A stretch of 49,710 nt of DNA, from NCBI GenBank assembly GCA_002413705.1, contig DHXN01000008.1, forward strand, positions 16,576 to 66,285, given 5' to 3'. Numbering within the stretch: position 1 is the first letter of the stretch; every line of letters begins with the position of its first letter. Source of the stretch: Candidatus Nomurabacteria bacterium UBA5155 (GTDB lineage: Bacteria > Patescibacteriota > Minisyncoccia > Phycocordibacterales > UBA9973). The position numbers and the translations under genes were made by a program. Of the stretch, positions 2,705-46,358 are shown piece by piece. The notes below the pieces were generated by a model. It was not told the origin of the DNA. It saw only the letters and a program-made list of their open reading frames with translations, and ran no database searches.

Positions 2705-3477
2705 AGATAATTAGTTATAATATTTGGGATTTGCCGTTGTGGTTTGTGCGCAATAGAAAAAAGCGATTGCTTGAAATTGGCAACTTGCTAAGCGATCAAC
2801 ATATGGAAATCATATGCTTTCAAGAGTCATGGGATCTTGAACATCGCGCGGCGCTCTCAGCATATCTCAGAGAAAGAGGGTATCATGATGCCATTCATCA
2901 AGCACAGATCAAACGCAACAATGGCGGATTGCTGACATTTTCAACATTTCCCATTACGTCAGTGCGATTTATTCCTTTTGGCAGAAAAGGACTCTCAGTC
3001 AGTGAAGTTATTGGCAATAAAGGAGTGTTGGAAACTATCATACAAACACCGAAAGGGCCGCTCCGCATCTTGAATCTGCATCTTCATCACCAATCAAGCA
3101 AATTTATCAAAACAGAAAAAATACGATTGCAACAGTTGCAGAAACTTTTTAATGATTTGAAACACGAATCACCGCTGCCTACCATTTTGATGGGCGACTT
3201 CAACGAACATGGTATGATGCAAGAGAAATCATATGCCGATCTTTTTGAGAAAGCCGGATTTATTCACCACAACAATGGCACTGAACTCTTGCCAACATAT
3301 CGAACAGAGAACTATTTTGTTAACAATTGGTTAAACCGCGTACCGCAATCACAACGCTATGACTATATTCTGACTAAGGATATAGAAAAAAACGATTTGC
3401 ATTTTAGCGGCTATGCGCCGTGGTACATTGATCCGCCGCTCTCTGACCATGACCCTGTGGTATTAACAGTCTTATAA
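2701..3477 (+). CDS. endonuclease/exonuclease/phosphatase (EEP) family protein
   Basis: MKIISYNIW, ICFQESW, MGDFNE and SDHDPV motifs. Its ATGA overlaps the end of the upstream gene. Confidence 0.8.
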   Translation: MKIISYNIWDLPLWFVRNRKKRLLEIGNLLSDQHMEIICFQESWDLEHRAALSAYLRERGYHDAIHQAQIKRNNGGLLTFSTFPITSVRFIPFGRKGLSVSEVIGNKGVLETIIQTPKGPLRILNLHLHHQSSKFIKTEKIRLQQLQKLFNDLKHESPLPTILMGDFNEHGMMQEKSYADLFEKAGFIHHNNGTELLPTYRTENYFVNNWLNRVPQSQRYDYILTKDIEKNDLHFSGYAPWYIDPPLSDHDPVVLTVL

Positions 3478-3484
3478 AAAACGT

Positions 3485-4084
3485 ATGCATCTTCCACTGC
3501 AAGATTTGCTAATACAATTTGGAACTACTCATTTTTATTTGATATATCTGGTTATATTTTTTATAGCCATTTTGGAGGGCCCAATACTGTCAGTGATACT
3601 GGGTATCATCCTGCGATTAAATCACTTCAGTTTTATTTTAGTGTATGTGATATTGATAATGGGTGATCTGACCGGCGATGTTATGTTGTATTACGTCGGC
3701 TATCGTTATGGCGTGTCAGTGATATCAAAAGTTAAAAAATGGTTTGGCTTAACGGAGGAGCGAATAAATAAGGCCAAAGAACTGTTTCATAACCATAAGT
3801 ATAAAATATTGTTCATCTCCAAACTGACCAACGGATTTGGTTTCGCAATCCCGGTTCTTGTTACAGCTGGTATCGTGCGTATTCCATTTTGGAAATTTAT
3901 TCGCACCAATATTGCTGGACAGTTGTTCTGGTCAGCAGGACTGCTGGCATTGGGATATTTTTTTGGAGGATTGTATGACAGTATTCACTCTGTCTTGGGT
4001 AAAAGTTTTCTGATCGGGGCGGTACTTATTATCGGTGTTATTGCGTATCACTACATAAAAGGAGTGAGAAAAAATTTTGAATAA
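3485..4084 (+). CDS. DedA/VTT-domain membrane protein
   Basis: Polytopic membrane protein with a LEGPILSV-type N-terminal segment and DedA-like topology. Confidence 0.65.
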   Translation: MHLPLQDLLIQFGTTHFYLIYLVIFFIAILEGPILSVILGIILRLNHFSFILVYVILIMGDLTGDVMLYYVGYRYGVSVISKVKKWFGLTEERINKAKELFHNHKYKILFISKLTNGFGFAIPVLVTAGIVRIPFWKFIRTNIAGQLFWSAGLLALGYFFGGLYDSIHSVLGKSFLIGAVLIIGVIAYHYIKGVRKNFE

Positions 4085-4778: not shown

Positions 4779-4806
4779 TATATGAGTACATCAAAAGTTC
4801 CCGAGA

Positions 4807-5310
4807 CTACATTGCGTTCAAAAATACCAAACTTCTCTCGATAACGTATTTGTTATACAAAGAAAGTGTTTCTTTTAAAACCTCTAGACGCTCACTGATT
4901 AGTTCAATTGCTTTTTCTTTTGATACCCATACTGTTTCCATTCCTCTTTCCAATTCTTTTTCTGTCAGTTCTTGCAATCCTTTTTCACCAATAACTTTTG
5001 CGGTAAAGCAAAACGAGTCATTGATTCGCTCTCGCTCTTTTCGATACTCCAATATTCTGCCGATGTTTGAAAGTATTTCCACATTGCAACCAATTTCTTC
5101 TTTGCATTCTCGCACGCACGCCTGTTCAAATGTTTCTCCTTCTTCCACCCCACCTCCAGGCAATTCATAATAATTACTCTGTCTAATATATAAAAGTGCA
5201 ATATTGCCATCTTCATCAAAGACAATGACACGAGCCGCTTTTCGTGTCTTATACCCAGCAGCTATTTCTTCCGAAATCTGTTCTTCGTTGAAAATATGTA
5301 GGGGTTTCAT
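4807..5310 (-). CDS. NUDIX hydrolase
   Basis: Nudix box GGGVEEGETFEQACVRECKEEIG. The start is at MKPLHIF (or 5328). Confidence 0.85.
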   Translation of the reverse strand: MKPLHIFNEEQISEEIAAGYKTRKAARVIVFDEDGNIALLYIRQSNYYELPGGGVEEGETFEQACVRECKEEIGCNVEILSNIGRILEYRKERERINDSFCFTAKVIGEKGLQELTEKELERGMETVWVSKEKAIELISERLEVLKETLSLYNKYVIERSLVFLNAM

Positions 5311-5368
5311 ATAGGAGAATAGTAGCATGAGCTATAAAAAAAACCTCTTTCGAGGAATTTTTTAGATG

Positions 5369-5757
5369 TGGATATGGGGATATTGAAATCCCGTGTAGAG
5401 AAAGTGAACAAGTAAATCTCCATGCGTAGCACTACTTTTTGTTTAAAGCATAATCTTAAAGTAGTGCGAAATGATTATGTCCCGAGTCTCGACTTATTCG
5501 GCGAATTCCTGAGACAAGGAAGACTACCTATTCTGATGCATGTTGCCGCAATTGTTTTATCAGAAATCAAACATTGCGACACCGGCTTGACCTAAATTAG
5601 GCGAAGATCGGAATGGCACCACCAAATGCTACTGCATAGGGAGATGCCACTTTAGATGAACTTGTTACAGTTATCTGTTGAACGACGGTTGCGGGAGTAC
5701 GTTCATGCCCGGCATGCATACGAGTTCAAGCTTTCACTATCGAAACCTGACATACCC
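5369..5757 (-). ncRNA. ssrA: tmRNA (SsrA)
   Basis: On the minus strand, the 5' GGGTATGTCAGGTTTCGATAG pairs with the 3' CATATCC-A. This gives a 7-bp acceptor stem with the G3:U70 alanine identity pair. A T-arm GGGAT-TTCAAT-ATCCC is present. An internal tag ORF, GCA TCT CCC TAT GCA GTA GCA TTT GGT GGT GCC ATT CCG ATC TTC GCC TAA, lies at 5647-5597. The gene starts 4 nt after the smpB stop. CCA is not encoded. Confidence 0.85.
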
Positions 5758-5761
5758 AAAT

Positions 5762-6208
5762 TTATCTTATAGCCTTAATCTCGCGATCCATATCGCGCTT
5801 ATCAGCTTTTTCTTTCAACGTGTTTCGCTTATCAACTGTTTTTTTACCTTTTGCGATTGCAATGGTCAGCTTGATAAGTGAACCCTTATTATGCAATGAA
5901 ATAGGCACAATAGTCAATCCTTTGGTTTTGAGGATTTTCGCCAGCCCCAGCAGCTCTTTTTTATGCACCAAAAGCTTGCGGGTACGATAGGGGTCGTATG
6001 CAGAGGAGACATTTTTTTCCTGCCAGGCCGGAATATGAGCGCCGAGTAAGACCAGTTCGCCATTCAATAGTGTGACATGACTGCCGTTGAGACTGCCATG
6101 TTGAGCTTTCACGGACTTCACCTCTGTACCCAAAAGCTCGATACCGGTTTCTATCGTGTCTTCGAGTGTGAAATTGAGACCGGCTTTTTTGTTGCGGAGA
6201 TATTCCAT
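5762..6208 (-). CDS. smpB: SsrA-binding protein SmpB
   Basis: GIELLGTEVKSVKA, NGELVLLGAHI, YDPYRTRKLLVHKKEL and KGLTIVPISL. The start is taken at MEYLRNKK, since the longer ORF overlaps the ftsH start. Confidence 0.9.
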   Translation of the reverse strand: MEYLRNKKAGLNFTLEDTIETGIELLGTEVKSVKAQHGSLNGSHVTLLNGELVLLGAHIPAWQEKNVSSAYDPYRTRKLLVHKKELLGLAKILKTKGLTIVPISLHNKGSLIKLTIAIAKGKKTVDKRNTLKEKADKRDMDREIKAIR

Positions 6209-6259
6209 ACCAATATCGTAGCATATCTCCGCTCCAGTACGCGTGGTATAATAGCCATT

Positions 6260-8179
6260 ATGCCGAAAAAAGACAAAAACACCGTACCCCCTCAAGAAGG
6301 AAATCCCCAAAAGAAACCAGACCCAAAGAAGCGTTCACTTTCTTCTTATATATTCAGTACACTGCTGATATTTGCTGTGATCATGGTGGTATTCTCACTG
6401 TTCTCTGGAGTTGGCACACCAAAAACAACTACCGTGACACTTTCAGAAGTAGCTCGTCTGGCTGAAGCGGGACAAGTGAAAAGCATTGTCATTACAGACG
6501 AAGATCTGACGGTAACAAAAACTGATGACTCTGTGGTGAAGTCGGTGAAAGAAACTGATGCATCACTGGTGCAAACACTTTCATCATACGGAGTGGACGC
6601 GACTCACCTCAATGCGCTTGATATCAGTGTTTCAACACAGTCTGGATTTATGTATTTCTTGGTGACATTCTTGCCAATCATTTTACCAATTCTTCTTGTA
6701 ATATTCTTCTTCTGGATGCTGACACGTCAGTCCAAAGGAGCAGGTATGCAAGCATTCACATTTGGACAATCCAAAGCGCGTATCACTGACCCTAATGACA
6801 ACACCAATCGTGTCACCTTCAAAGATGTGGCCGGCGCGCGCGAAGCAAAAGAGGAACTGAAAGAAATTGTCGACTTCCTGCGCAATCCAAAAAAGTTTTT
6901 GGAAATCGGCGCGCGTATTCCTAAAGGTGTGCTGTTGACCGGAGCACCGGGAACAGGTAAGACATTGCTTGCTCGTGCGGTAGCCGGAGAGGCAGGTGTG
7001 CCGTTCTATCATTTGTCCGGTTCTGAATTCGTTGAAATGTTTGTCGGTGTCGGTGCGTCTCGCGTGCGTGATCTTTTCAAAATGGCCAAGCGTGCAGCGC
7101 CGGCAATTATTTTTATTGATGAAATTGATGCTGTCGGACGAGTCCGCGGTGGTGGCTATGGAGGCGGCAATGACGAACGAGAACAAACACTCAATCAAAT
7201 CCTGGTTGAAATGGACGGCTTTGAGCCAAATGATAAAGTGATCGTGATGGCAGCGACAAATCGTAATGATGTGTTGGATCCTGCATTGCTTCGTCCGGGT
7301 CGCTTTGACCGTCGAGTGATACTCGACCTGCCTGATCGCCGCGATCGTGAAGAAATTCTCGAAGTGCACTCAACCAAGAAACCGTTCGGCGAAGATGTGA
7401 ATTTGAAAGTGATCGCGGAACGCACACCGGGATTTTCTGGCGCCGACTTGTCATCATTGATGAATGAGGGCGCGATCCTGGCAGCGCGTGAAAACCGCAA
7501 GAAAATTTCTCAGTTTGATCTTATTCGTTCGATTGAAAAAGTGATGATCGGTCCAGAACGCAAGAGTCATTTGTTTACCAAAAAAGAAAAATTGATCACC
7601 GCATATCACGAAGCCGGTCACGCGCTTGTGGCATCAGTATTGCCTGATGCTGATCCGGTGCACAAGATTTCTATCGTGGCGCGCGGACGTGCCGGCGGAT
7701 ACACATTGAAGCTGCCGCTTGAAGAACGAAAGCTTCAGACACGCAAAGAATTTTTGGATGACATTGCCATGAGTCTCGGCGGTTATGCCGCAGAACAAAT
7801 GATCTTTGGCGACGTGACCACTGGTCCTTCAAATGACTTGCAGGTGGCCAGCAGTTTGGCACGCGCCATGGTCACTCGCTGGGGTATGAGTGACAGCATT
7901 GGTCCGGTGGCGCTTGAAAATGACGGCGGACGCGCGATGTTCGGACAGGGCGTGGAAAGCAAAGAATACTCTGAAAAAACCAGCGCATTGATTGACTCCG
8001 AAGTGCAGCGCATCATGAACGAAGCAATGACGCGCGCTCGCGAAGTGCTCACTACTTACAAAAACGTCTTGGAAATCATCACCAAAAAACTGATGGATGT
8101 CGAAACACTTGAACAGCCGGAGTACGAAGCGATTCTTTCTGCGCATGGCATTGAGCTTAAGAAATTAGAGGTTCTCTAG
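6260..8179 (+). CDS. ftsH: ATP-dependent zinc metalloprotease FtsH
   Basis: Walker [29 protein letters not shown], the SRH motif and the zinc site HEAGHAL. An N-terminal TM helix is present. The start is at MPKKDKN. Confidence 0.95.
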
Positions 8180-9321: not shown

Positions 9322-9591
9322 ATGAAAATTTTGTTCATTTGTCTTTTTGCGCTATTCCTGGGAGTAGGAAGTGTCGCAGCTCAATCAAAAAATCTAACTG
9401 ATTCTTTAGTATTGTCTCCAAAACAAAAAAATAAACCGTATCCTGTGCTAAAAGCGGAAACGCCGCAATTATTTTTTCAACAGGTATTGCTTGAACATAT
9501 TGAGAAAAGGATTCAGAGAAAAATTATAAAATCAATCCAGCAGGAAGATCGTAAAAATTGTATGTCGTATTCGTACGGTATTCGATTTTAG
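9322..9591 (+). CDS. small secreted hypothetical protein
   Basis: Signal peptide MKILFICLFALFLGVGSVAAQS. It is followed by a terminator. Confidence 0.4.
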   Translation: MKILFICLFALFLGVGSVAAQSKNLTDSLVLSPKQKNKPYPVLKAETPQLFFQQVLLEHIEKRIQRKIIKSIQQEDRKNCMSYSYGIRF

Positions 9592-9612
9592 GATTTTTAT
9601 TTTCAATAAAAC

Positions 9613-9641
9613 AAAAAAGCTACCGCAATGGTAGCTTTTTA
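9613..9641. terminator. bidirectional rho-independent terminator
   Basis: AAAAAAGCTACC-gcaat-GGTAGCTTTTT lies between convergent genes. Confidence 0.65.
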
Positions 9642-9665
9642 TATTGCGAATTATTTTTTACGTTT

Positions 9666-10139
9666 TTATGCGCTGACTTTATCAGTACCGATAGTTTCGA
9701 GATGTCCCTCAGAAAGTTCAAGCATTTCATAATGCCAATTTACTCCTTCTTCACTGAGTATCAGAAGATCCTCATGTTCCATGCCTTCAGCCGCACCGCG
9801 AACAAGCGCCCAGTGCACAATTGCCGCACCTTCAAAGAAACCACTCCATTCCATCAGTTCAGTGGCATTGTCCCATTGGTCAGCAACATACAGGTCGCGC
9901 ATCTTTTTCAATTTTTCTTCCGTGGCAGTTGCTTTCACAAGTGTTGTATCGATGACACCACCATCTGTCGCCAGCTTCATGATCGATTCGCCATGCATGC
10001 GATTTTTCTCTTCTATGTCCACTACCTTTTCTTCACCCAAAGCTTCCACCAATGCCGCGCGACCTTTTTCATAAGTATCGGTACCCACGCGGTTAAATGC
10101 CAATAATTCTCCCAGTTTCTTTCCCACAAATTCATTCAT
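9666..10139 (-). CDS. hypothetical acidic helical protein (possibly ferritin-like four-helix bundle)
   Basis: 157 aa with balanced, acidic composition. The opposite-strand ORF (9558..10106) is F/C/H-rich junk. The fold assignment is a guess. Confidence 0.55.
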   Translation of the reverse strand: MNEFVGKKLGELLAFNRVGTDTYEKGRAALVEALGEEKVVDIEEKNRMHGESIMKLATDGGVIDTTLVKATATEEKLKKMRDLYVADQWDNATELMEWSGFFEGAAIVHWALVRGAAEGMEHEDLLILSEEGVNWHYEMLELSEGHLETIGTDKVSA

Positions 10140-10255
10140 ATATAATTTGATTATTCTGCTAATGCTGGTTATAGAGTAGAGGAAATTGCGTATTTATACA
10201 AGTCATATATAATTAACAATATTACTCGGTACACTTAATTCAGTAGTTCTATTTT

Positions 10256-10921
10256 ATGGCTCGTAGAGAAGACAAAATAAAAGCAATACAAATGAGGCAA
10301 AAAGGAATGAGTTATTCCAAGATAAAGACTGTTCTGAATGTGAGTAAGAGCACTTTAAGTAATTGGCTTTCTGGTGTAGTGCTTTCAAAAGAACAGTTAA
10401 GTAAGTTGAAAGAAATTACTCCTCAAAAAATAGAACGATATAGAGAAACTATGAAAATTAAAAAAACCGCTCGACTAGAAACTGTTTTTCAAAAAGCACA
10501 ATCTGATATCGGTATATTATCTCAACGAGATCTATTTGTTGCTGGTATTGCTTTATACTGGGGAGAGGGAACAAAAGCACAGCCTGCCCATGTTGCGTTG
10601 ACGAATACTAATCCTGCAATGTTACAATTTTTCCTTAAATGGATTGATATTTTTAATATAGACAAAAGTAAAATACGAATAAGATTGCATTTATACAACG
10701 ATATGGATATTAAAAAATCAATGCAATTTTGGTCAAAAGAACTTTCAATACCACTTGCACAGTTTCGAAAACCGTATATAAAGAAAACGAGTAGTTTTAG
10801 CATTACCTATAGGAATAGTTTCAAAATGGGGACATGCAGTGTAACATATGGCAATGCACCGTTATATGAGTATATAATGATGTGCATAAAGGTTCTTGAA
10901 TCCCCAATAATCCGCTCTTAG
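10256..10921 (+). CDS. HTH + LAGLIDADI-like (single-motif) homing-endonuclease-like protein
   Basis: N-terminal resolvase-type HTH (GMSYSKIKTVLNVSKSTLSNWL). It is followed by FVAGIALYWGEGTK, a LAGLIDADI-type motif ending in an acidic residue plus G. The last 10 nt, including the TAG stop, lie inside the tRNA gene. Confidence 0.6.
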   Translation: MARREDKIKAIQMRQKGMSYSKIKTVLNVSKSTLSNWLSGVVLSKEQLSKLKEITPQKIERYRETMKIKKTARLETVFQKAQSDIGILSQRDLFVAGIALYWGEGTKAQPAHVALTNTNPAMLQFFLKWIDIFNIDKSKIRIRLHLYNDMDIKKSMQFWSKELSIPLAQFRKPYIKKTSSFSITYRNSFKMGTCSVTYGNAPLYEYIMMCIKVLESPIIRS

Positions 10922-10984
10922 CTCAGTTGGTAGAGCAGTCGTCTTATACACGACCGGTCCATGGTTCGAATCCATGAGGGCGGA
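10912..10984 (+). tRNA. tRNA-Ile (anticodon UAU)
   Basis: Hand fold: acceptor CCGCTCT/AGGGCGG (C1-G72, one U-G); D arm GCTC-AGTTGGTA-GAGC; anticodon arm GTCGT-CTTATAC-ACGAC; T arm CATGG-TTCGAAT-CCATG; discriminator A. Confidence 0.85.
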
Positions 10985-11025
10985 CAATATTTACTTTCAA
11001 CAAAAATCTAGTATAGTTTTCTTAT

Positions 11026-12612: not shown

Positions 12613-14814
12613 TCATTCGAAATGCATCTTCTCAAACGGCTTAGTATAAGCATCCAGTAATGGGTGCTTTTCTAATGTCGGATCTTCAACAATGAGCGTA
12701 ATGGCTGCTTGGCGCGCTGCTTCCACTAGTTTCAAATTGCGCAGCGCCTCCATACCGATATCGGAAATGCCCCATTGTTGTGTGCCGGTTAGCTCGCCGG
12801 TGCCGCGCAGCTGCAAGTCATACTCTGCCAATTCAAAACCATTTTTGGCTTCCAAAAATAATTTCATGCGCTCTTGTGTGCGTTCACTCTTGGCATCAGC
12901 GAACAAATAACAATACGGCTGGTATGACGATCGCTGTACGCGTCCGCGCAATTGATGCAGTTGTGACAGACCAAAACGTTCGGCACCTTCAATAATAATC
13001 ACTGTTGCATTGGGTACGTTCACGCCGACTTCCACCACCGATGTTGCCACCAGTATGTCGACTTCATGATTCACAAAGTCATACATGCTTTCTTCCTTCT
13101 TTTCTTTGGTCATCTTGCTGTGCAGTATGCCGATGCGATATTCTGGAAATATTTTTTCTTGCAATCGCTTGGCTTCGGTCGTGACATTTTTCATCTGTAG
13201 TTTTGCTATTGTATCTTTTGCATCTTTGTCAGACGAAGCGATGCGAGGACAAATGATGTAACACTGTCGTCCTTCTTTTAGTACGGCGCGAATTTTTTCA
13301 TACACATCTTCGCGTTTGTCAGGTGTGACAAGTACGGTAGTGACTTGCTTGCGCCCGGCGGGCAGTTGATCAAGCAGTGACAAATCCAAGTCGCCATAGA
13401 TCGTCAGTGCCAGCGTGCGAGGAATCGGTGTGGCAGTCATCGAAAGTAGGTGAGGAAAGTGTGTATCTTTTTTGGCCAACCCTTTGCGTTGATTGAGCCC
13501 GAAGCGATGTTGCTCGTCGATAATTGCCAGTGCCAGGTGTTTGAATGTCAGACTTTTTTGAATGAGCGCATGCGTGCCGATGACAATAGGAATTTCACCA
13601 TTGGCAATCCATTTTGAAAGTTGCGGTCGAGAGATAGTTGTCCAATTATCTTTGTTTGATGCGACCTTACTGGGAAATTTTCTGCAGCCGCTGCCAGTGA
13701 TCAATGCAATGGAAATACCTGTGTGACGAAAGAGTTCAATGAAACTTTCGAAATGTTGTGTCGCCAGTATTTCTGTTGGCGCCATGTACGCGACCTGTAG
13801 GCTGCCATATGTTTGTTTGGTGCGAACCGATCGGTCAAGCGGTTTATCAGTTGCTTTAAATGGACGATTCATGATCGTGGCATATGCAGCCACGGCAGCA
13901 ACGGCAGTCTTGCCGCTACCAACATCTCCTTCCAGTAAACGTGACATTGGCACATCATGTTCCATGTCTTGCAAAATATGTCCGATAGCGGTGCGCTGTG
14001 CATCGGTCAGAGGAAAACCAAAGCGTTTGATAAAATCTTCAGTGTCGACACTTTCGGTATTGATTGCATAGGCTACTTGCTCTTTGATATTTAAGCGCTC
14101 CTTTTGTCGCGCAATGTTGATAGAAAATATTTCATCAAATGCAAAACGCTTGCGCGCGATAATGGCGTTATCTTTTGTTTTTGGTCCGTGTATCCAAATC
14201 AGTGCCGTTTTCAACGTGGGAAGTGAATTTTGTTTGAGCAGTTCGGCAGGAAGGTGGTCGGGAATAGTTTCCAACGTCGCCAGTGCTCGTGTCACTGCAT
14301 GATGCAGCCACAAGCTCGATACGCCACGTGTTTCTGGATAGACTGGTGTTAGCACGGCATGTTCATCGCTGGCAAAAAGCGAATCGTGACTATCGATCGG
14401 CAGTGCTTTCTCCTCGCGCACTGTTGGATTGACCATTGCCAAGCTGTCTTTGTAAGTGCTGACCTTGCCGGTGATTTCGATTGTGCCTCCAACGTGCAGC
14501 ATTTTTGATAGGTATGGCTGATTGAACCAAATGACAGTCATGGTGCCGCCGACATCTTCAATGACACCTTCGGTCAGTGCCATTTTGCTTTTCCATGATT
14601 TTTTGGCCGTCAGTTTTTTGATAGTGCCACGAACTGTGGCGACCGTGTCTTCGGTCAGACCCTGGATTGAAACATACTGACTTTCATCGGCATAGCGCGT
14701 CGGGAAGTGATAGAGCAGGTCGCGGACTGTCACGATACCAAGTTTGGCCAAGCCTATTTTTTTGTCCCCATCCAGTCGGGTAAGTTCGGCAATTGGTGAC
14801 TGAAGGGTAATCAT
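12613..14814 (-). CDS. recG: ATP-dependent DNA helicase RecG
   Basis: Wedge domain plus GDVGSGKTAVAA, IIDEQHRFG, MTATPIPRTLA and QLRGRVQR. Confidence 0.95.
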   Translation of the reverse strand: MITLQSPIAELTRLDGDKKIGLAKLGIVTVRDLLYHFPTRYADESQYVSIQGLTEDTVATVRGTIKKLTAKKSWKSKMALTEGVIEDVGGTMTVIWFNQPYLSKMLHVGGTIEITGKVSTYKDSLAMVNPTVREEKALPIDSHDSLFASDEHAVLTPVYPETRGVSSLWLHHAVTRALATLETIPDHLPAELLKQNSLPTLKTALIWIHGPKTKDNAIIARKRFAFDEIFSINIARQKERLNIKEQVAYAINTESVDTEDFIKRFGFPLTDAQRTAIGHILQDMEHDVPMSRLLEGDVGSGKTAVAAVAAYATIMNRPFKATDKPLDRSVRTKQTYGSLQVAYMAPTEILATQHFESFIELFRHTGISIALITGSGCRKFPSKVASNKDNWTTISRPQLSKWIANGEIPIVIGTHALIQKSLTFKHLALAIIDEQHRFGLNQRKGLAKKDTHFPHLLSMTATPIPRTLALTIYGDLDLSLLDQLPAGRKQVTTVLVTPDKREDVYEKIRAVLKEGRQCYIICPRIASSDKDAKDTIAKLQMKNVTTEAKRLQEKIFPEYRIGILHSKMTKEKKEESMYDFVNHEVDILVATSVVEVGVNVPNATVIIIEGAERFGLSQLHQLRGRVQRSSYQPYCYLFADAKSERTQERMKLFLEAKNGFELAEYDLQLRGTGELTGTQQWGISDIGMEALRNLKLVEAARQAAITLIVEDPTLEKHPLLDAYTKPFEKMHFE

Positions 14815-16896: not shown

Positions 16897-16981
16897 GGAG
16901 GATTGGATGAGTGGTTTAAATCAACGGTTTACTAAACCGTCGACTGTAAAAGGTCCGTGAGTTCGAATCTCACATCCTCCG
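16897..16981 (+). tRNA. type II tRNA, Ser-like, anticodon ACU
   Basis: Acceptor GGAGGAT/ATCCTCC with all pairs Watson-Crick. 3-bp D stem GAT/ATC with GG in the loop. Anticodon arm ACGGT-TTACTAA-ACCGT. Long variable arm CGACTGTAAAAGGTCC. T arm GTGAG-TTCGAAT-CTCAC. Discriminator G. Confidence 0.7.
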
Positions 16982-25985: not shown

Positions 25986-26070
25986 CGGAGACGGCGAGAT
26001 TCGAACTCGCGAGGCTTTGACACCTGCCTCCTTAGCAAGGAGGTACGTTAGACCACTCCGACACGTCTCC
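25986..26070 (-). tRNA. tRNA-Ser (anticodon GCU)
   Basis: On the minus strand: GGAGACG...CCTCC-TTGCTAA-GGAGG...long variable arm...CGAGT-TCGAATC...CGTCTCC-G. Confidence 0.85.
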
Positions 26071-45511: not shown

Positions 45512-45585
45512 GCCGGTGTAGCTCAGGTAGTTAGAGCATCTCACTCATAAAGAGAAGGTCACAAGTGCAAATCTTGTCATCGGCA
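45512..45585 (+). tRNA. elongator-type tRNA with CAU anticodon (Met, or Ile2 if lysidinylated)
   Basis: Acceptor GCCGGTG/CATCGGC. D arm GCTC-AGGTAGTTA-GAGC. Anticodon loop CTCATAA. T arm ACAAG-TGCAAAT-CTTGT, with G at position 55. Confidence 0.7.
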
Positions 45586-45621: not shown

Positions 45622-46293
45622 ATGCCAGTTTATAAAAATGTAAATAAAAAATTTTTTAACATATGGACTTCTGAAATGGCATACGTGCTAGGATTTTTTG
45701 CTGCCGATGGTTATATTACAGTTAATAAAAGAGGTGGACAATATTGGGGTATTCAAATTATTGATAAAAATTTGTTGGAAGAAATTAAAAAGGTGATTGG
45801 ATCTGAACACGCTATTGGTTGTAAAAAAGGTAAGGAAAATGAAAGCACATTATATCGTCTTCAGATCGGCAGCATTGAAATATGTGATGCACTTCGGGGG
45901 TTGGGGTTTTCTGAAAAGAAAACAAACAATATGACACTGCCCGGTGTCCCGGAAGAGTATGTTGGAGATTTTATCAGAGGATATTTTGATGGTGATGGCA
46001 ATGTCTGGGTTGGTAAGAATAATGCGCGTCGAGAAAGAAGTGTTGATACGATACTTGTCATGTTTACTTCCTGTTCTGAATCATTCTTACAGTCTTTGAA
46101 ACAAAGACTCATTTTGAAAGGTTTAAAGGGTGGTTCACTATATTCCTTAAAAGAAGGGTATTTTCGGCTTTCACTGAGTGTGCAGGACTCTTTGAAATTA
46201 TTCGAAATTATGTATAATAACAGCACGTCAGAGAGCTTGTATCTAAAGCGAAAGAAAGACGTTTTCGAACAATTTATAGCAATGCGACCGTAG
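45622..46293 (+). CDS. double-motif LAGLIDADI homing endonuclease
   Basis: LGFFAADGYI and IRGYFDGDGNV motifs about 100 aa apart. The last 10 nt, including the TAG stop, lie inside tRNA-Asp. Confidence 0.85.
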   Translation: MPVYKNVNKKFFNIWTSEMAYVLGFFAADGYITVNKRGGQYWGIQIIDKNLLEEIKKVIGSEHAIGCKKGKENESTLYRLQIGSIEICDALRGLGFSEKKTNNMTLPGVPEEYVGDFIRGYFDGDGNVWVGKNNARRERSVDTILVMFTSCSESFLQSLKQRLILKGLKGGSLYSLKEGYFRLSLSVQDSLKLFEIMYNNSTSESLYLKRKKDVFEQFIAMRP

Positions 46294-46358
46294 CTCAGCT
46301 GGTTAGTAGCGCCCGCCTGTCACGCGGGAGGTCGGCGGTTCAAGTCCGCTCGGTCGCG
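46284..46358 (+). tRNA. tRNA-Asp (GUC)
   Basis: Acceptor GCGACCG/CGGTCGC, anticodon arm CCCGC-CTGTCAC-GCGGG, T arm GGCGG-TTCAAGT-CCGCT, discriminator G. Confidence 0.9.

What the first reader, a model, noticed from the sequence alone, without database searches (positions are those of the whole stretch)
10256..10984. Homing-endonuclease-like gene borrows its stop codon from tRNA nucleotides 8-10 (locus 1, tRNA-Ile)
Seen directly: the HTH + LAGLIDADI-like ORF ends ...ATC CGC TCT TAG at 10910-10921. The tRNA-Ile begins at 10912. The last two sense codons are therefore the tRNA 5' acceptor strand, and the TAG is tRNA U8-A9-G10.

The identical geometry recurs at 46284-46293, with an unrelated LAGLIDADI protein and tRNA-Asp. 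The overlap is 10 nt in both cases.

Inference: the endonuclease gene sits flush against the 5' edge of a tRNA gene. It relies on the near-invariant UAG(CUCAG) of the D-arm entry as its terminator codon. RNase P cleavage at tRNA position 1 would cut the shared transcript 7 nt upstream of the stop. That would produce a non-stop mRNA, which is a substrate for the smpB/ssrA system encoded in this window. tRNA maturation and endonuclease translation would then be mutually exclusive on a given transcript. The conserved tRNA 5' region would also be an ideal homing target.
Basis: partly seen in the sequence, partly recalled or inferred. Interest (0 to 1): 0.68.

Follow-up and report, generated by a model that had tools for sequence, protein, structure and literature searches.

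The report
Optional selfish genes abutting tRNA genes
In tiny-genome (CPR/Paceibacteria) bacteria, an optional, probably selfish DNA-binding gene always sits flush against the tRNA-Ile(UAU) gene and often ends on a stop codon that is part of the tRNA. Two other gene families do the same at tRNA-Val and tRNA-Asp.

Summary
ORF1 (10256-10921) ends on TAG 10919-10921, which is U8-A9-G10 of tRNA-Ile(UAU) (10912-10984, ARAGORN and Rfam). ORF2 (45622-46293) does the same with tRNA-Asp.

It is not chance. ORF1 belongs to a family of more than 1,200 proteins, found in 405 species genomes. In 79 of 79 testable loci it abuts tRNA-Ile(UAU). Of the members that run into the tRNA, 37 of 39 stop at the position 8-10 TAG.

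About half the family has its own stop a few bases upstream, and the state has flipped at least 15 times. Housekeeping genes (DsbB, GNAT, L19) also end inside tRNAs. The shared stop is therefore a backstop produced by tight packing, not an obligatory device.

The gene is optional. Many relatives have ftsH followed directly by tRNA-Ile, others carry remnants, and others carry GIY-YIG genes in the same slot. ORF1 is under purifying selection (pN/pS 0.1-0.2).

The "LAGLIDADG-like" label for ORF1 is not established: a confident model finds no LAGLIDADG structure. ORF2 is a true LAGLIDADG protein.

Best reading: homing-endonuclease-like selfish cassettes, each dedicated to one tRNA locus. The RNase P/tmRNA gating idea is untested.

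The parts
10256..10921 (+). ORF1, 221 aa: member of a Paceibacteria family with an N-terminal HTH and an unannotated C-terminal domain. The stop codon is included.
   Evidence: The family N-terminus MARKxDKQKA supports the 10256 start. pN/pS is 0.10-0.20 in close pairs.
10259..10372 (+). Helix-turn-helix DNA-binding domain (aa 2-39), resolvase/transposase-type
   Evidence: Pfam HTH_23 E=8.9e-07, above the gathering score, plus HTH_3, HTH_28 and HTH_7. HTH_23 matches all 33 family members scanned.
10511..10897 (+). Conserved C-terminal domain (aa ~86-214) with invariant YWGEGTK and TNTNP motifs. No Pfam or PHROG family and no structural match.
   Evidence: The superfamily has 2689 representative clusters.
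10898..10918 (+). Variable C-terminal tail (ESPIIRS). The last two codons (CGC TCT) are tRNA positions 2-7.
   Evidence: Alignment A1 shows the tail is not conserved in length or sequence. The core end lies a median 26 nt from the tRNA.
10919..10921 (+). Shared TAG: the stop codon of ORF1 and U8-A9-G10 of the tRNA
10912..10984 (+). tRNA-Ile, anticodon UAU, C1-G72 acceptor pair, no encoded CCA
   Evidence: ARAGORN. Rfam RF00005, 66.7 bits. Cloverleaf fold.
10196..10255 (+). Degenerate copy of the dyad/hairpin-plus-promoter element that precedes the ORF in relatives (ATAyGAAC-N~30-GTTCrTAT, ending 4-7 nt before the ATG)
   Evidence: In the window the hairpin is weak (-6.4 kcal/mol, z=+0.45). It is strong in L067 (-24.5, z=-6.1) and L019 (-18.1, z=-2.2).
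6077..8179 (+). ftsH, the conserved upstream neighbour of the slot
   Evidence: Pfam Peptidase_M41 and AAA. Upstream of the ORF in 63 of 81 loci.
12613..14814 (-). recG, the conserved downstream neighbour of the slot
   Evidence: Pfam RecG_wedge, DEAD and Helicase_C. Synteny.
45622..46293 (+). ORF2, 223 aa: double-motif LAGLIDADG endonuclease, with its stop inside tRNA-Asp
   Evidence: Pfam LAGLIDADG_3 E=3.5e-12, two stretches. PHROG 4645 'endonuclease' E=1.3e-40. Invariant D29 and D125.
46284..46358 (+). tRNA-Asp(GUC), intronless here. TAG 46291-46293 is positions 8-10.
45512..45585 (+). tRNA-Met(CAU), the upstream flank of ORF2. The same order (tRNA-Met, tRNA-Met, ORF2, tRNA-Asp) is seen in relatives.
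5366..5757 (-). tmRNA (ssrA). smpB lies next to it at 5762..6310 (minus strand).
   Evidence: Rfam RF00023, 61.7 bits. Pfam SmpB E=1.8e-44.

Best explanation
What it is:
- ORF1 is a real, selected gene. It belongs to a large Paceibacteria-specific family with an N-terminal helix-turn-helix and a roughly 130-aa domain of unknown fold that probably acts as a dimer.
- It forms an optional cassette of about 0.75 kb: a dyad/hairpin element carrying a -10 box, followed by the ORF.
- The cassette occupies one fixed slot, directly beside the tRNA-Ile(UAU) gene, usually between ftsH and that tRNA.
- It behaves like a free-standing homing-endonuclease-type selfish gene dedicated to one tRNA locus. This is inferred; no nuclease activity has been shown.

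How the shared stop arises:
- The conserved core of the protein ends 8-30 nt before the tRNA, and its tail is free to vary.
- When that short spacer holds no stop codon, translation runs into the tRNA gene. The near-universal T8-A9-G10 then acts as a backstop terminator.
- Arrangements in the other two frames, which would read 20-80 nt into the tRNA, are removed by selection.

Where else it happens:
- The sister family at tRNA-Val(GAC).
- The true LAGLIDADG family at tRNA-Asp(GUC), which is locus 2 (ORF2).
- Ordinary housekeeping genes in these compact genomes.

Consequence: where ORF and tRNA share a transcript, RNase P cleavage would remove the stop codon. This probably keeps expression low, but it is a side effect rather than the reason for the arrangement.
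For: Shown:
- tRNA and ORF coordinates.
- The family has 1266 proteins and is found in 405 species genomes.
- tRNA-Ile(UAU) abuts the ORF 3' end in 79 of 79 testable genome loci, on the opposite strand in 5 of them.
- ftsH-ORF-tRNA-recG synteny.
- 37 of 39 ORFs that read into the tRNA stop at the position 8-10 TAG. ORFs with their own stop are spread 12:15:16 over the frames. There are at least 15 switches between the two states.
- The core end lies a median 26 nt from the tRNA. The tail is not conserved.
- pN/pS is 0.10-0.20.

Optional cassette:
- Of 99 informative metagenomic tRNA-Ile(UAU) loci, 12 have the full ORF and 84 have none.
- 21 loci are true empty sites, with the ftsH stop 0-146 nt from the tRNA in 20 of them and 265 nt (a GIY-YIG ORF lies between) in L183. 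Occupied sites have 700-890 nt there.
- Remnants of the ORF are found in L085 and L096.
- Presence or absence needs at least 23 changes on an FtsH tree of 106 loci.
- The same slot holds GIY-YIG genes, a Y1 transposase or other cargo in other lineages.

Same geometry elsewhere:
- The Val(GAC) sister family has a 10-nt overlap in L197, L204 and L205, and 82 of 120 members have acceptor-stem-encoded tails.
- In the ORF2 family, 88 of 120 members end [MLVI]R-x and 23 more read further into the tRNA. Contexts are L201, L203, L206 and L209.
- DsbB, GNAT and L19 genes stop inside tRNAs.

Other support:
- A hairpin-plus-promoter element lies upstream of the ORF. It matches the control architecture described for T4 segB, mobE and I-TevI (PMC2988022).
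- T4 SegB is a free-standing endonuclease in a tRNA cluster that recognises a tRNA TψC motif (PMC2330249).
- Single-chain proteins with two copies of the C-domain exist. This suggests the domain works as a dimer.
Against: - No nuclease fold or motif is established for ORF1. There is no significant Pfam, PHROG, PDB or BFVD match for the C-domain.
- No target site has been identified. DNA upstream of the tRNA in empty sites is not conserved. The tRNA D-arm is the same in occupied and empty alleles, so how an occupied allele would escape self-cleavage is unexplained.
- ORF divergence tracks FtsH divergence (Mantel r=0.69, 0 of 2000 permutations). Much of the history could therefore be vertical descent with repeated loss rather than active homing.
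- No footprint or duplicated tRNA fragment flanks the cassette in general.
- The hairpin element is degenerate in the window's own copy.
Confidence: 0.6

Rival explanations
1. The borrowed stop is an adaptive regulatory device. RNase P cleavage at tRNA position 1 makes the endonuclease mRNA a non-stop message that tmRNA/SmpB destroys. tRNA maturation and endonuclease translation are then mutually exclusive, and the overlap is selected for that reason.
For: - The position 8-10 frame is kept in 37 of 39 read-in cases.
- It is nearly universal in the ORF2 family, where 88 of 120 members have M/L-R-x tails, and in the Val family.
- tmRNA and smpB are present.
- In empty sites with a 0-5 nt ftsH-tRNA spacer (L120, L112), the tRNA must be cut out of a protein-coding transcript. 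Co-transcription is therefore normal here.
- T4 work shows that ribosome access to structured RNA around homing-endonuclease genes is kept low (PMC2988022).
Against: - 51 of 90 ORF1-family loci have their own stop upstream, and the state flipped at least 15 times.
- The gene stays next to the tRNA when the tRNA is on the other strand, where no shared transcript with this polarity exists.
- Housekeeping genes (L19, DsbB, GNAT) show the same overlap, although tagging them for destruction would be harmful.
- tmRNA and smpB are universal bacterial genes, so finding them in the window carries no information.
- No expression data are available.
Confidence: 0.2
2. ORF1 is a host gene, not a mobile one. 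It would be a domesticated HTH regulator, for example of the ftsH-tRNA-Ile(UAU) transcription unit or of AUA decoding. It would be inherited vertically and lost often because it is dispensable.
For: - Strong purifying selection (pN/pS 0.1-0.2).
- ORF distances correlate with FtsH distances (Mantel r=0.69).
- A dyad-symmetric, operator-like element with covarying half-sites overlaps a -10 box upstream of the gene.
- No recognisable nuclease domain.
- Sources name members 'transcriptional regulator with XRE-family HTH domain'.
Against: - It is absent from about 85% of sampled tRNA-Ile(UAU) loci, including close relatives whose FtsH is 83-90% identical.
- Presence and absence are nearly randomly scattered: 23 changes against 32.8 for shuffled labels.
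- Decayed remnants exist.
- The slot is shared with GIY-YIG nucleases and a Y1 transposase.
- A sister family is locked in the same way to a different tRNA.
- Some pairs have ORFs more similar than their FtsH (L003-L010: 0.82 against 0.71).
Confidence: 0.2
3. The tRNA-Ile(UAU) gene and ORF1 travel together as one mobile unit, with the tRNA as cargo.
For: Linkage of the ORF to this tRNA is 100%. tRNA-Ile(UAU) is an unusual way for bacteria to decode AUA (PMC3575796).
Against: - The tRNA occupies the same ftsH-recG slot without the ORF in many genomes.
- tRNA sequences co-diverge with the host and differ between loci whose ORFs are very similar (L003 against L010).
Confidence: 0.04
4. Coincidence or annotation artefact: a spurious ORF, or a misplaced tRNA 5' end.
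For: U8-A9-G10 is common in tRNAs, so any ORF entering in that frame will stop there.
Against: - Two independent tRNA callers agree on the 5' end.
- The ORF has more than 1200 homologues under purifying selection.
- The frame bias is 37:2.
Confidence: 0.01

Closest known systems
Phage T4 SegB, and the T5 tRNA-region endonucleases (the latter from my own knowledge): free-standing homing endonucleases embedded in tRNA gene clusters
   Same: - A free-standing gene, not inside an intron or intein, lying between or next to tRNA genes.
- Present in some relatives and absent from others at the same place.
- SegB recognises a site containing the conserved tRNA TψC motif (PMC2330249).
- segB is controlled by a hairpin-plus-promoter arrangement (PMC2988022), like the element upstream of the ORF1 family.
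   Different: - SegB is a GIY-YIG enzyme of a phage. ORF1 is chromosomal in CPR bacteria and has an HTH plus an unclassified domain.
- No cleavage has been shown for ORF1.
- Each CPR family is locked to one specific tRNA and packed so tightly that the stop codon lies in the tRNA.
LAGLIDADG homing endonucleases in rRNA insertion sequences and introns of CPR bacteria (e.g. I-ShaI; PMC11270868)
   Same: - The same host group.
- Site-specific, patchily distributed endonuclease genes, inherited both vertically and by homing.
- ORF2 is a bona fide LAGLIDADG_3 protein.
   Different: - Those genes lie inside introns or insertions of rRNA genes and are mostly single-domain.
- ORF2 is free-standing, has two motifs, and sits outside the tRNA, flush with its 5' end.
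- ORF1 is not shown to be LAGLIDADG.
Collaborative or trans homing: a free-standing endonuclease next to a gene carrying an endonuclease-less group I intron (F-CphI/psbA, mobE/I-TevIII; PMC6083498, PMC2790892, PMC2988022)
   Same: In three of five ORF2-family lineages examined (L201/L202, L206-208, L209), the adjacent tRNA-Asp carries a roughly 250-nt group I intron without an ORF in its anticodon loop. The LAGLIDADG gene lies just outside.
   Different: - In the window itself, and in L203, tRNA-Asp is intronless.
- The target site is unknown.
- The intron match is below Rfam's gathering score (39.9 against 50 bits, E=6e-9).
tRNA punctuation in animal mitochondria, where protein genes abut or overlap tRNA genes and transcript processing defines mRNA ends (from my own knowledge)
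   Same: A protein-coding gene and a tRNA share bases and probably a transcript. tRNA excision defines the 3' end of the mRNA.
   Different: - In mitochondria, incomplete stops are completed by polyadenylation.
- Here the complete stop lies inside the tRNA and would be lost on RNase P cleavage.
- This is a bacterial setting with tmRNA.
WhiA: a domesticated LAGLIDADG-plus-HTH transcription factor (from my own knowledge)
   Same: It combines an HTH with a homing-endonuclease-like scaffold in a DNA-binding protein. It is a model for the 'domesticated regulator' rival.
   Different: - WhiA has two degenerate LAGLIDADG domains followed by a C-terminal HTH, and is universally conserved in its clades.
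- ORF1 has an N-terminal HTH and one unclassified domain, and is patchily present.

Membership tests
LAGLIDADG homing endonuclease (ORF1) | Significant match to a LAGLIDADG profile (Pfam LAGLIDADG_1, _2 or _3) | tested here: not met
   - The window protein has no LAGLIDADG hit at E<=0.1.
- 10 of 33 family members hit LAGLIDADG_3, all below threshold: best E 0.0087, 16.7 bits against a cut-off of 22.5, covering only the first 46 residues.
- hhalign against the ORF2 family gives a probability of 0.8%.
LAGLIDADG homing endonuclease (ORF1) | αββαββα fold superposable on solved LAGLIDADG enzymes | tested here: not met
   - The C-domain model has pLDDT 87.9 and pTM 0.81, with topology α-β-β-α-β-α-β-β-α.
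- The Foldseek PDB top 50 contains no LAGLIDADG enzyme; the best TM-score is 0.42, to OmpA-like or IspF folds.
- BFVD has no match at E<=0.001.
- Caveat: a divergent domain with an inserted helix could be missed.
LAGLIDADG homing endonuclease (ORF1) | Motif helix ending in a conserved acidic residue | tested here: inconclusive
   LFVAGIALYWGEGTK, with G103-E104-G105 invariant in 97 sequences, resembles LAGLIDADG...GDG. This is a motif-level resemblance only.
LAGLIDADG homing endonuclease (ORF2) | Two LAGLIDADG domains, each with a conserved acidic residue | tested here: met
   - Pfam LAGLIDADG_3 E=3.5e-12, two stretches.
- Invariant FAADG (D29) and FDGDG (D123, D125) in 24 sequences.
- PHROG 4645 'endonuclease' E=1.3e-40.
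Free-standing homing endonuclease gene (functional class), ORF1 | Lies outside any intron or intein, at one fixed genomic site next to a conserved target gene | tested here: met
   79 of 79 loci are next to tRNA-Ile(UAU). ftsH/recG synteny.
Free-standing homing endonuclease gene (functional class), ORF1 | Presence/absence polymorphism with clean empty sites and decaying copies | tested here: met
   - 21 empty ftsH-tRNA sites.
- Remnants in L085 and L096.
- At least 23 state changes on the FtsH tree.
Free-standing homing endonuclease gene (functional class), ORF1 | Horizontal spread: gene tree incongruent with host tree | tested here: inconclusive
   Mantel r=0.69 indicates mostly co-divergence. 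Outlier pairs run in both directions: L003-L010 (FtsH 0.71, ORF 0.82) and L028-L063 (0.79, 0.45).
Free-standing homing endonuclease gene (functional class), ORF1 | Site-specific double-strand cleavage of the empty allele | not testable with these tools
   This needs purified protein and empty-site DNA.
tRNA (Rfam RF00005) | Covariance-model match over the full model, with a cloverleaf and an anticodon | tested here: met
   - 10912-10984: 66.7 bits.
- 46284-46358: 59 bits.
- ARAGORN anticodons UAU and GUC.
Non-stop mRNA / trans-translation substrate | An mRNA 3' end generated upstream of the stop codon, here by RNase P at tRNA position 1 | not testable with these tools
   The geometry permits it, because the stop lies 7 nt inside the tRNA. 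There are no transcript or end-mapping data. tmRNA and SmpB are present.

The most novel reading that the evidence does not exclude
CPR/Paceibacteria carry several families of selfish endonucleases, each dedicated to one tRNA gene: Ile-UAU, Val-GAC and Asp-GUC, and possibly more.
- The HTH-'YWGEGTK' family would be a previously unrecognised homing-endonuclease fold.
- All families are inserted into the tRNA's 5' leader, so that the tRNA's own U8-A9-G10 is their terminator.
- Their expression would be gated twice: by a start-codon hairpin on read-through transcripts, and by RNase P cleavage that turns the message into a tmRNA substrate.
Probability: 0.2. Interest if true: 0.8.

Novelty: new variant of a known kind. 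Interest (0 to 1): 0.6.

Why it matters
**A rule rather than a curiosity.** Hundreds of uncultured bacterial species hold optional genes locked to one specific tRNA gene. The packing is so tight that the tRNA supplies the stop codon.

**What it offers:**
- A large uncharacterised protein family with a clear genomic address. Its natural empty and occupied alleles make function testable.
- A bacterial chromosome counterpart to the phage SegB/tRNA-cluster system.
- A natural case in which tRNA processing and translation termination compete on one transcript.
- A practical warning for annotation. Gene callers and tRNA finders will disagree at these loci. Some relatives' tRNA-Asp genes are missed altogether because they carry an intron.

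**Engineering interest.** If the proteins cleave DNA, they would be compact, highly specific enzymes that recognise tRNA genes.

Tried and rejected
1. **A displaced tRNA 5' fragment upstream of the ORF**, as if the cassette carried a replacement 5' half.
   - Local alignment of each tRNA to its own upstream 300 nt gives a median z of about 0 over 176 comparisons.
   - The only hits are L033 (a 28-nt 3' fragment) and L052 (a 25-nt D-arm-like piece).
   - The apparent 11/15 match I saw by eye at 10233-10247 is not supported.
2. **A tRNA promoter hidden in the conserved W-E-Y-I-M codons.**
   - There is no clear synonymous-site constraint: Y codons TAT 15 / TAC 11; I codons ATA 19 / ATT 8, against a family background of 43% ATA.
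   - The consensus scan finds no promoter-like site between 10256 and 10911 on the plus strand.
3. **LAGLIDADG identity of ORF1.** Sequence profiles, profile-profile comparison, the PDB sequence search and two fold libraries gave no significant match; the only LAGLIDADG hits were sub-threshold Pfam ones.
4. **The full-length model.** It was poor (pLDDT 73, pTM 0.47) and its fold matches were meaningless. I redid the prediction on the C-domain with 97 sequences.
5. **Transitive links to LAGLIDADG through larger relatives.** The 400-580-aa relatives have only HTH Pfam hits.
6. **Exact insertion boundaries.** The closest occupied/empty pairs are only 76-81% identical in the ftsH 3' end. That is too far apart for base-level boundaries.
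7. **Empty sites for ORF2** (tRNA-Met directly followed by tRNA-Asp).
Full report
**1. The observation**

- The ORF 10256..10921 (+, 221 aa) ends ...ATC CGC TCT TAG, with TAG at 10919-10921.
- ARAGORN calls tRNA-Ile(UAU) at 10912-10985. The Rfam tRNA covariance model matches 10912-10984 over its full length at 66.7 bits.
- The overlap is therefore 10 nt, and the stop codon is U8-A9-G10 of the tRNA.
- The second locus has the same geometry. ORF 45622..46293 (223 aa) has TAG at 46291-46293, and tRNA-Asp(GUC) lies at 46284-46358.
- The two proteins share no similarity.
- tmRNA (5366-5757, minus strand) and smpB (5762-6310, minus strand) are in the window.

**2. What the proteins are**

ORF2 is a genuine double-motif LAGLIDADG protein:
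- Pfam LAGLIDADG_3, E=3.5e-12, two stretches.
- Invariant FAADG and FDGDG in 24 relatives.
- PHROG 'endonuclease', E=1.3e-40.

ORF1 has a significant N-terminal HTH (HTH_23, E=8.9e-07; found in all 33 relatives scanned). Its C-terminal 130 residues are not assignable:
- Only sub-threshold LAGLIDADG_3 hits, in 10 of 33 members (best E 0.0087, first half of the model only).
- hhalign against the ORF2 family gives a probability of 0.8%.
- No PDB sequence match and no PHROG.
- A confident AlphaFold model of the domain (pLDDT 87.9, pTM 0.81) finds no LAGLIDADG enzyme in PDB or BFVD. The best TM-score is about 0.4, to unrelated α/β folds.

The domain is nevertheless widespread:
- It has 2689 representative clusters at E<=1e-3.
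- These include 400-580-aa proteins with two copies plus HTHs. That hints the domain works as a dimer.

It is a resemblance, not a demonstrated membership.

**3. The main finding: each family is locked to one tRNA gene**

- ORF1 has 1266 homologues and is encoded in 405 species-representative genomes. All are CPR/Paceibacteria-type genomes assembled from metagenomes.
- In the 80 loci fetched, every one that extends far enough (79) has tRNA-Ile(UAU) directly at the 3' end of the gene. In 74 it is on the same strand. In 5 (L036, L047, L050, L059, L062) it is on the opposite strand, yet still close to the stop: 3-50 nt in four of them and about 245 nt in L059.
- A distant paralogous family (32% identity, 427 proteins) sits in the same way upstream of tRNA-Val(GAC). 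It has the same 10-nt overlap in L197, L204 and L205.
- The ORF2 family (2314 proteins) sits upstream of tRNA-Asp(GUC), after two tRNA-Met genes, as in the window.

**4. Is the shared stop conserved?**

In 90 ORF1-family loci:
- 39 ORFs read into the tRNA. 37 of them end at the position 8-10 TAG; one ends at position 20 and one at position 81.
- 51 have their own stop upstream. Their frames relative to the tRNA are evenly spread (12:15:16).
- On the ORF tree the state changes at least 15 times.

The conserved protein core ends at the equivalent of residue 213-214. The tail beyond it varies in length and sequence. The core end lies a median 26 nt from the tRNA, and within 30 nt in 49 of 82 loci.

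Protein tails tell the same story in the other families:
- 88 of 120 ORF2 relatives end [MLVI]-R-x, that is AT|G CGN NNN TAG, which is tRNA positions 1-10. Another 23 carry read-through signatures from other frames or from TAG-less tRNAs (checked on DNA in L201, L203, L206, L209).
- 82 of 120 Val-family members end in two acceptor-stem-encoded residues.

Ordinary genes do it too:
- A DsbB gene ends at the position 8-10 TAG of tRNA-Phe.
- A GNAT acetyltransferase gene ends at that of tRNA-Val(UAC).
- Ribosomal protein L19 ends at the position-19 TAG of tRNA-Leu.
- A GIY-YIG gene ends at the TAG of tRNA-Ile(UAU) in L127.

My reading: the tRNA's TAG is a backstop terminator. Selection tolerates ending there and removes arrangements that would read deeper into the tRNA. 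The overlap itself is not required.

**5. The gene is optional**

I scanned metagenomes with a tRNA-Ile(UAU) pattern, which is blind to the ORF. This gave 120 loci. Of the 99 with at least 700 nt upstream (or an ORF hit):
- 12 carry the full ORF.
- 2 carry only C-terminal remnants (L085, L096).
- 1 carries the Val-type paralogue.
- 84 carry nothing.

Many of the 84 are true empty sites in the same synteny. In 20 of the 21 classified empty loci the ftsH stop codon is 0-146 nt from the tRNA; the 21st, L183 (265 nt), carries a small GIY-YIG ORF in that gap. These include relatives with FtsH 83-90% identical to that of an occupied genome. Occupied loci have 700-890 nt there.

On an FtsH tree of 106 loci, presence or absence needs at least 23 changes (shuffled labels: mean 32.8, minimum 26).

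The slot can instead hold GIY-YIG genes (L127, L183), an IS200-type Y1 transposase (L144), hydrolases or membrane proteins.

When present, the gene is under purifying selection (pN/pS 0.10-0.20 in 14 close pairs).

ORF divergence tracks FtsH divergence (Mantel r=0.69, 0 of 2000 permutations), with outliers in both directions. Much of the history is therefore vertical. Horizontal gain is likely but not proven.

The tRNA does not need the protein. This rules out a dedicated tRNA-Ile(UAU) cofactor.

**6. A control element belongs to the cassette**

- Directly upstream of the ATG, occupied loci share an inverted repeat, ATAyGAAC ... GTTCrTAT.
- Its spacing is fixed: 38 nt in 30 of 50 loci and 36-39 nt in nearly all the rest. 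It ends 4-7 nt before the ATG.
- The two arms covary: GTAC/GTAC in L014 and L032, and GTTCC in L071. RNAalifold shows covariation at two of six pairs.
- A -10-like box lies inside the loop (TGGTATACT) or forms the distal arm (TATAAT).
- As RNA, the element is a strong hairpin that buries the start codon in L067 (-24.5 kcal/mol, z=-6.1), and it is significant in L019 (z=-2.2). It is degenerate in the window's own copy (z=+0.45).
- It is absent from empty sites.
- This is the architecture described for T4 segB, mobE and I-TevI. There, read-through transcripts fold and are not translated, while transcripts from the promoter inside the hairpin are (PMC2988022).
- It could equally be the operator of the HTH domain. 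I cannot separate the two readings.

**7. Mechanism**

Shown:
- The flush geometry.
- The conserved linkage to one tRNA.
- The optional presence.
- Selection on the protein.
- The frame bias.

Inferred:
- The cassette is a free-standing homing-endonuclease-type element that targets the tRNA-Ile(UAU) locus. The closest precedent is T4 SegB, which lies in a tRNA cluster and recognises a tRNA TψC motif (PMC2330249).
- In empty sites with 0-5 nt between ftsH and the tRNA (L120, L112), the tRNA must be cut from the ftsH transcript. The cassette is therefore inserted into an existing co-transcription unit.
- RNase P cleavage of a shared transcript would strip the stop codon from those alleles that use the tRNA's TAG. 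I regard this as a probable dampening side effect, not the purpose.

Weak points:
- No nuclease fold has been found.
- No target site has been identified.
- It is unexplained how an occupied allele would escape self-cleavage.

**8. Locus 2 has an extra twist**

- In three of five ORF2-family lineages, the adjacent tRNA-Asp carries a roughly 250-nt group I intron between positions 35 and 36. Rfam Intron_gpI matches the full model at 39.9 bits, E=6e-9, below the gathering score.
- ARAGORN and the Rfam tRNA model miss these genes.
- A free-standing LAGLIDADG gene beside an ORF-less intron is the 'collaborative homing' configuration (PMC2988022, PMC6083498).
- The window's tRNA-Asp is intronless.

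**9. Novelty**

- Literature searches found LAGLIDADG genes in CPR rRNA insertions (PMC11270868) and phage endonucleases in tRNA clusters.
- They found nothing on CPR gene families locked to specific tRNA genes, or on tRNA-encoded stop codons in bacteria.
- The held library does not include most subscription journals, so this is absence of evidence only.
- I class the finding as a new variant of a known kind.

Noticed in passing
L206 3183-3429; L201 about 3678-3925; L209 about 3195-3425: In relatives, the tRNA-Asp(GUC) gene downstream of the ORF2 homologue is split by a roughly 250-nt group I intron between anticodon positions 35 and 36. Rfam Intron_gpI matches the full model at 39.9 bits, E=6e-9, below the gathering score of 50. 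ARAGORN and the Rfam tRNA model fail to call these tRNAs.
   Followed up: partly
L001-L200, 60 nt upstream of each ORF1-family ATG; window 10196-10255: A conserved inverted repeat, ATAyGAAC-N~30-GTTCrTAT, has fixed 36-39 nt spacing, covarying arms and an embedded -10 box. In several lineages it forms a start-codon-sequestering hairpin. It is degenerate in the window.
   Followed up: partly
L048 4245-4796 (DsbB, then tRNA-Phe at 4787); L066 4589-5023 (GNAT, then tRNA-Val(UAC) at 5014); L048 3370-3714 (L19, then tRNA-Leu at 3694): Housekeeping genes also terminate on a TAG inside the downstream tRNA (positions 8-10, or 19-21 for L19). Gene/tRNA overlap therefore looks like a general trait of these compact genomes.
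   Followed up: partly
L127 (reverse complement of the stored locus, 1431-1679 on the tRNA strand); L183 about 9525-9760: Small GIY-YIG proteins (82 and 78 aa, Pfam E=6.6e-15 and 1.4e-13) occupy the same ftsH-tRNA-Ile(UAU) slot. The L127 gene also stops on the tRNA's position 8-10 TAG.
   Followed up: partly
L144 598-1302: An IS200-type Y1 transposase gene (Pfam Y1_Tnp, E=1.3e-08) lies in the same slot, 54 nt upstream of tRNA-Ile(UAU).
   Followed up: no
L169, 60-110 nt upstream of the tRNA at 3536: An empty site carries a truncated pseudo-copy of the tRNA-Ile 5' half (cgcccgtagctcagttggtcagagcacggagtttataatgagg), just upstream of the intact tRNA.
   Followed up: no
window 16897-16981: A serine-type tRNA with a long variable arm has the anticodon loop TTACTAA, which reads as anticodon ACU (A34). 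This is unusual for bacteria. Rfam tRNA scores 55.6 bits. A normal tRNA-Ser(GCU) is also present at 25986-26070 (minus strand).
   Followed up: no
window 10912-10984 and many relatives: tRNA-Ile(UAU) of the window's clade begins with a C1-G72 pair (CCGCYCU...). Other clades have G1. The anticodon loop CUUAUAC is near-invariant across 80 loci.
   Followed up: no
L120 and L112: The ftsH stop codon is 0 nt and 5 nt from tRNA-Ile(UAU) position 1. The tRNA must therefore be processed out of the ftsH transcript or made from a promoter inside ftsH.
   Followed up: no
P0397, P0403, P0408, P0412, P0429, P0444, P0463, P0467: Proteins of 400-580 aa carry two copies of the ORF1 C-terminal domain plus HTH domains, so they look like fused dimers. 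No Pfam family covers the domain.
   Followed up: partly
P0344: One Val-family member gives a near-threshold match to Pfam DUF6902 (E=1.1e-05, 25 bits against a cut-off of 27) over residues 37-194. This may link the domain to a family of unknown function.
   Followed up: no
window 10256 against P0001: Public gene calls start this ORF at Met13 (209 aa). The family alignment, with its conserved N-terminus MARKxDKQKA, supports the 10256 start (221 aa).
   Followed up: yes
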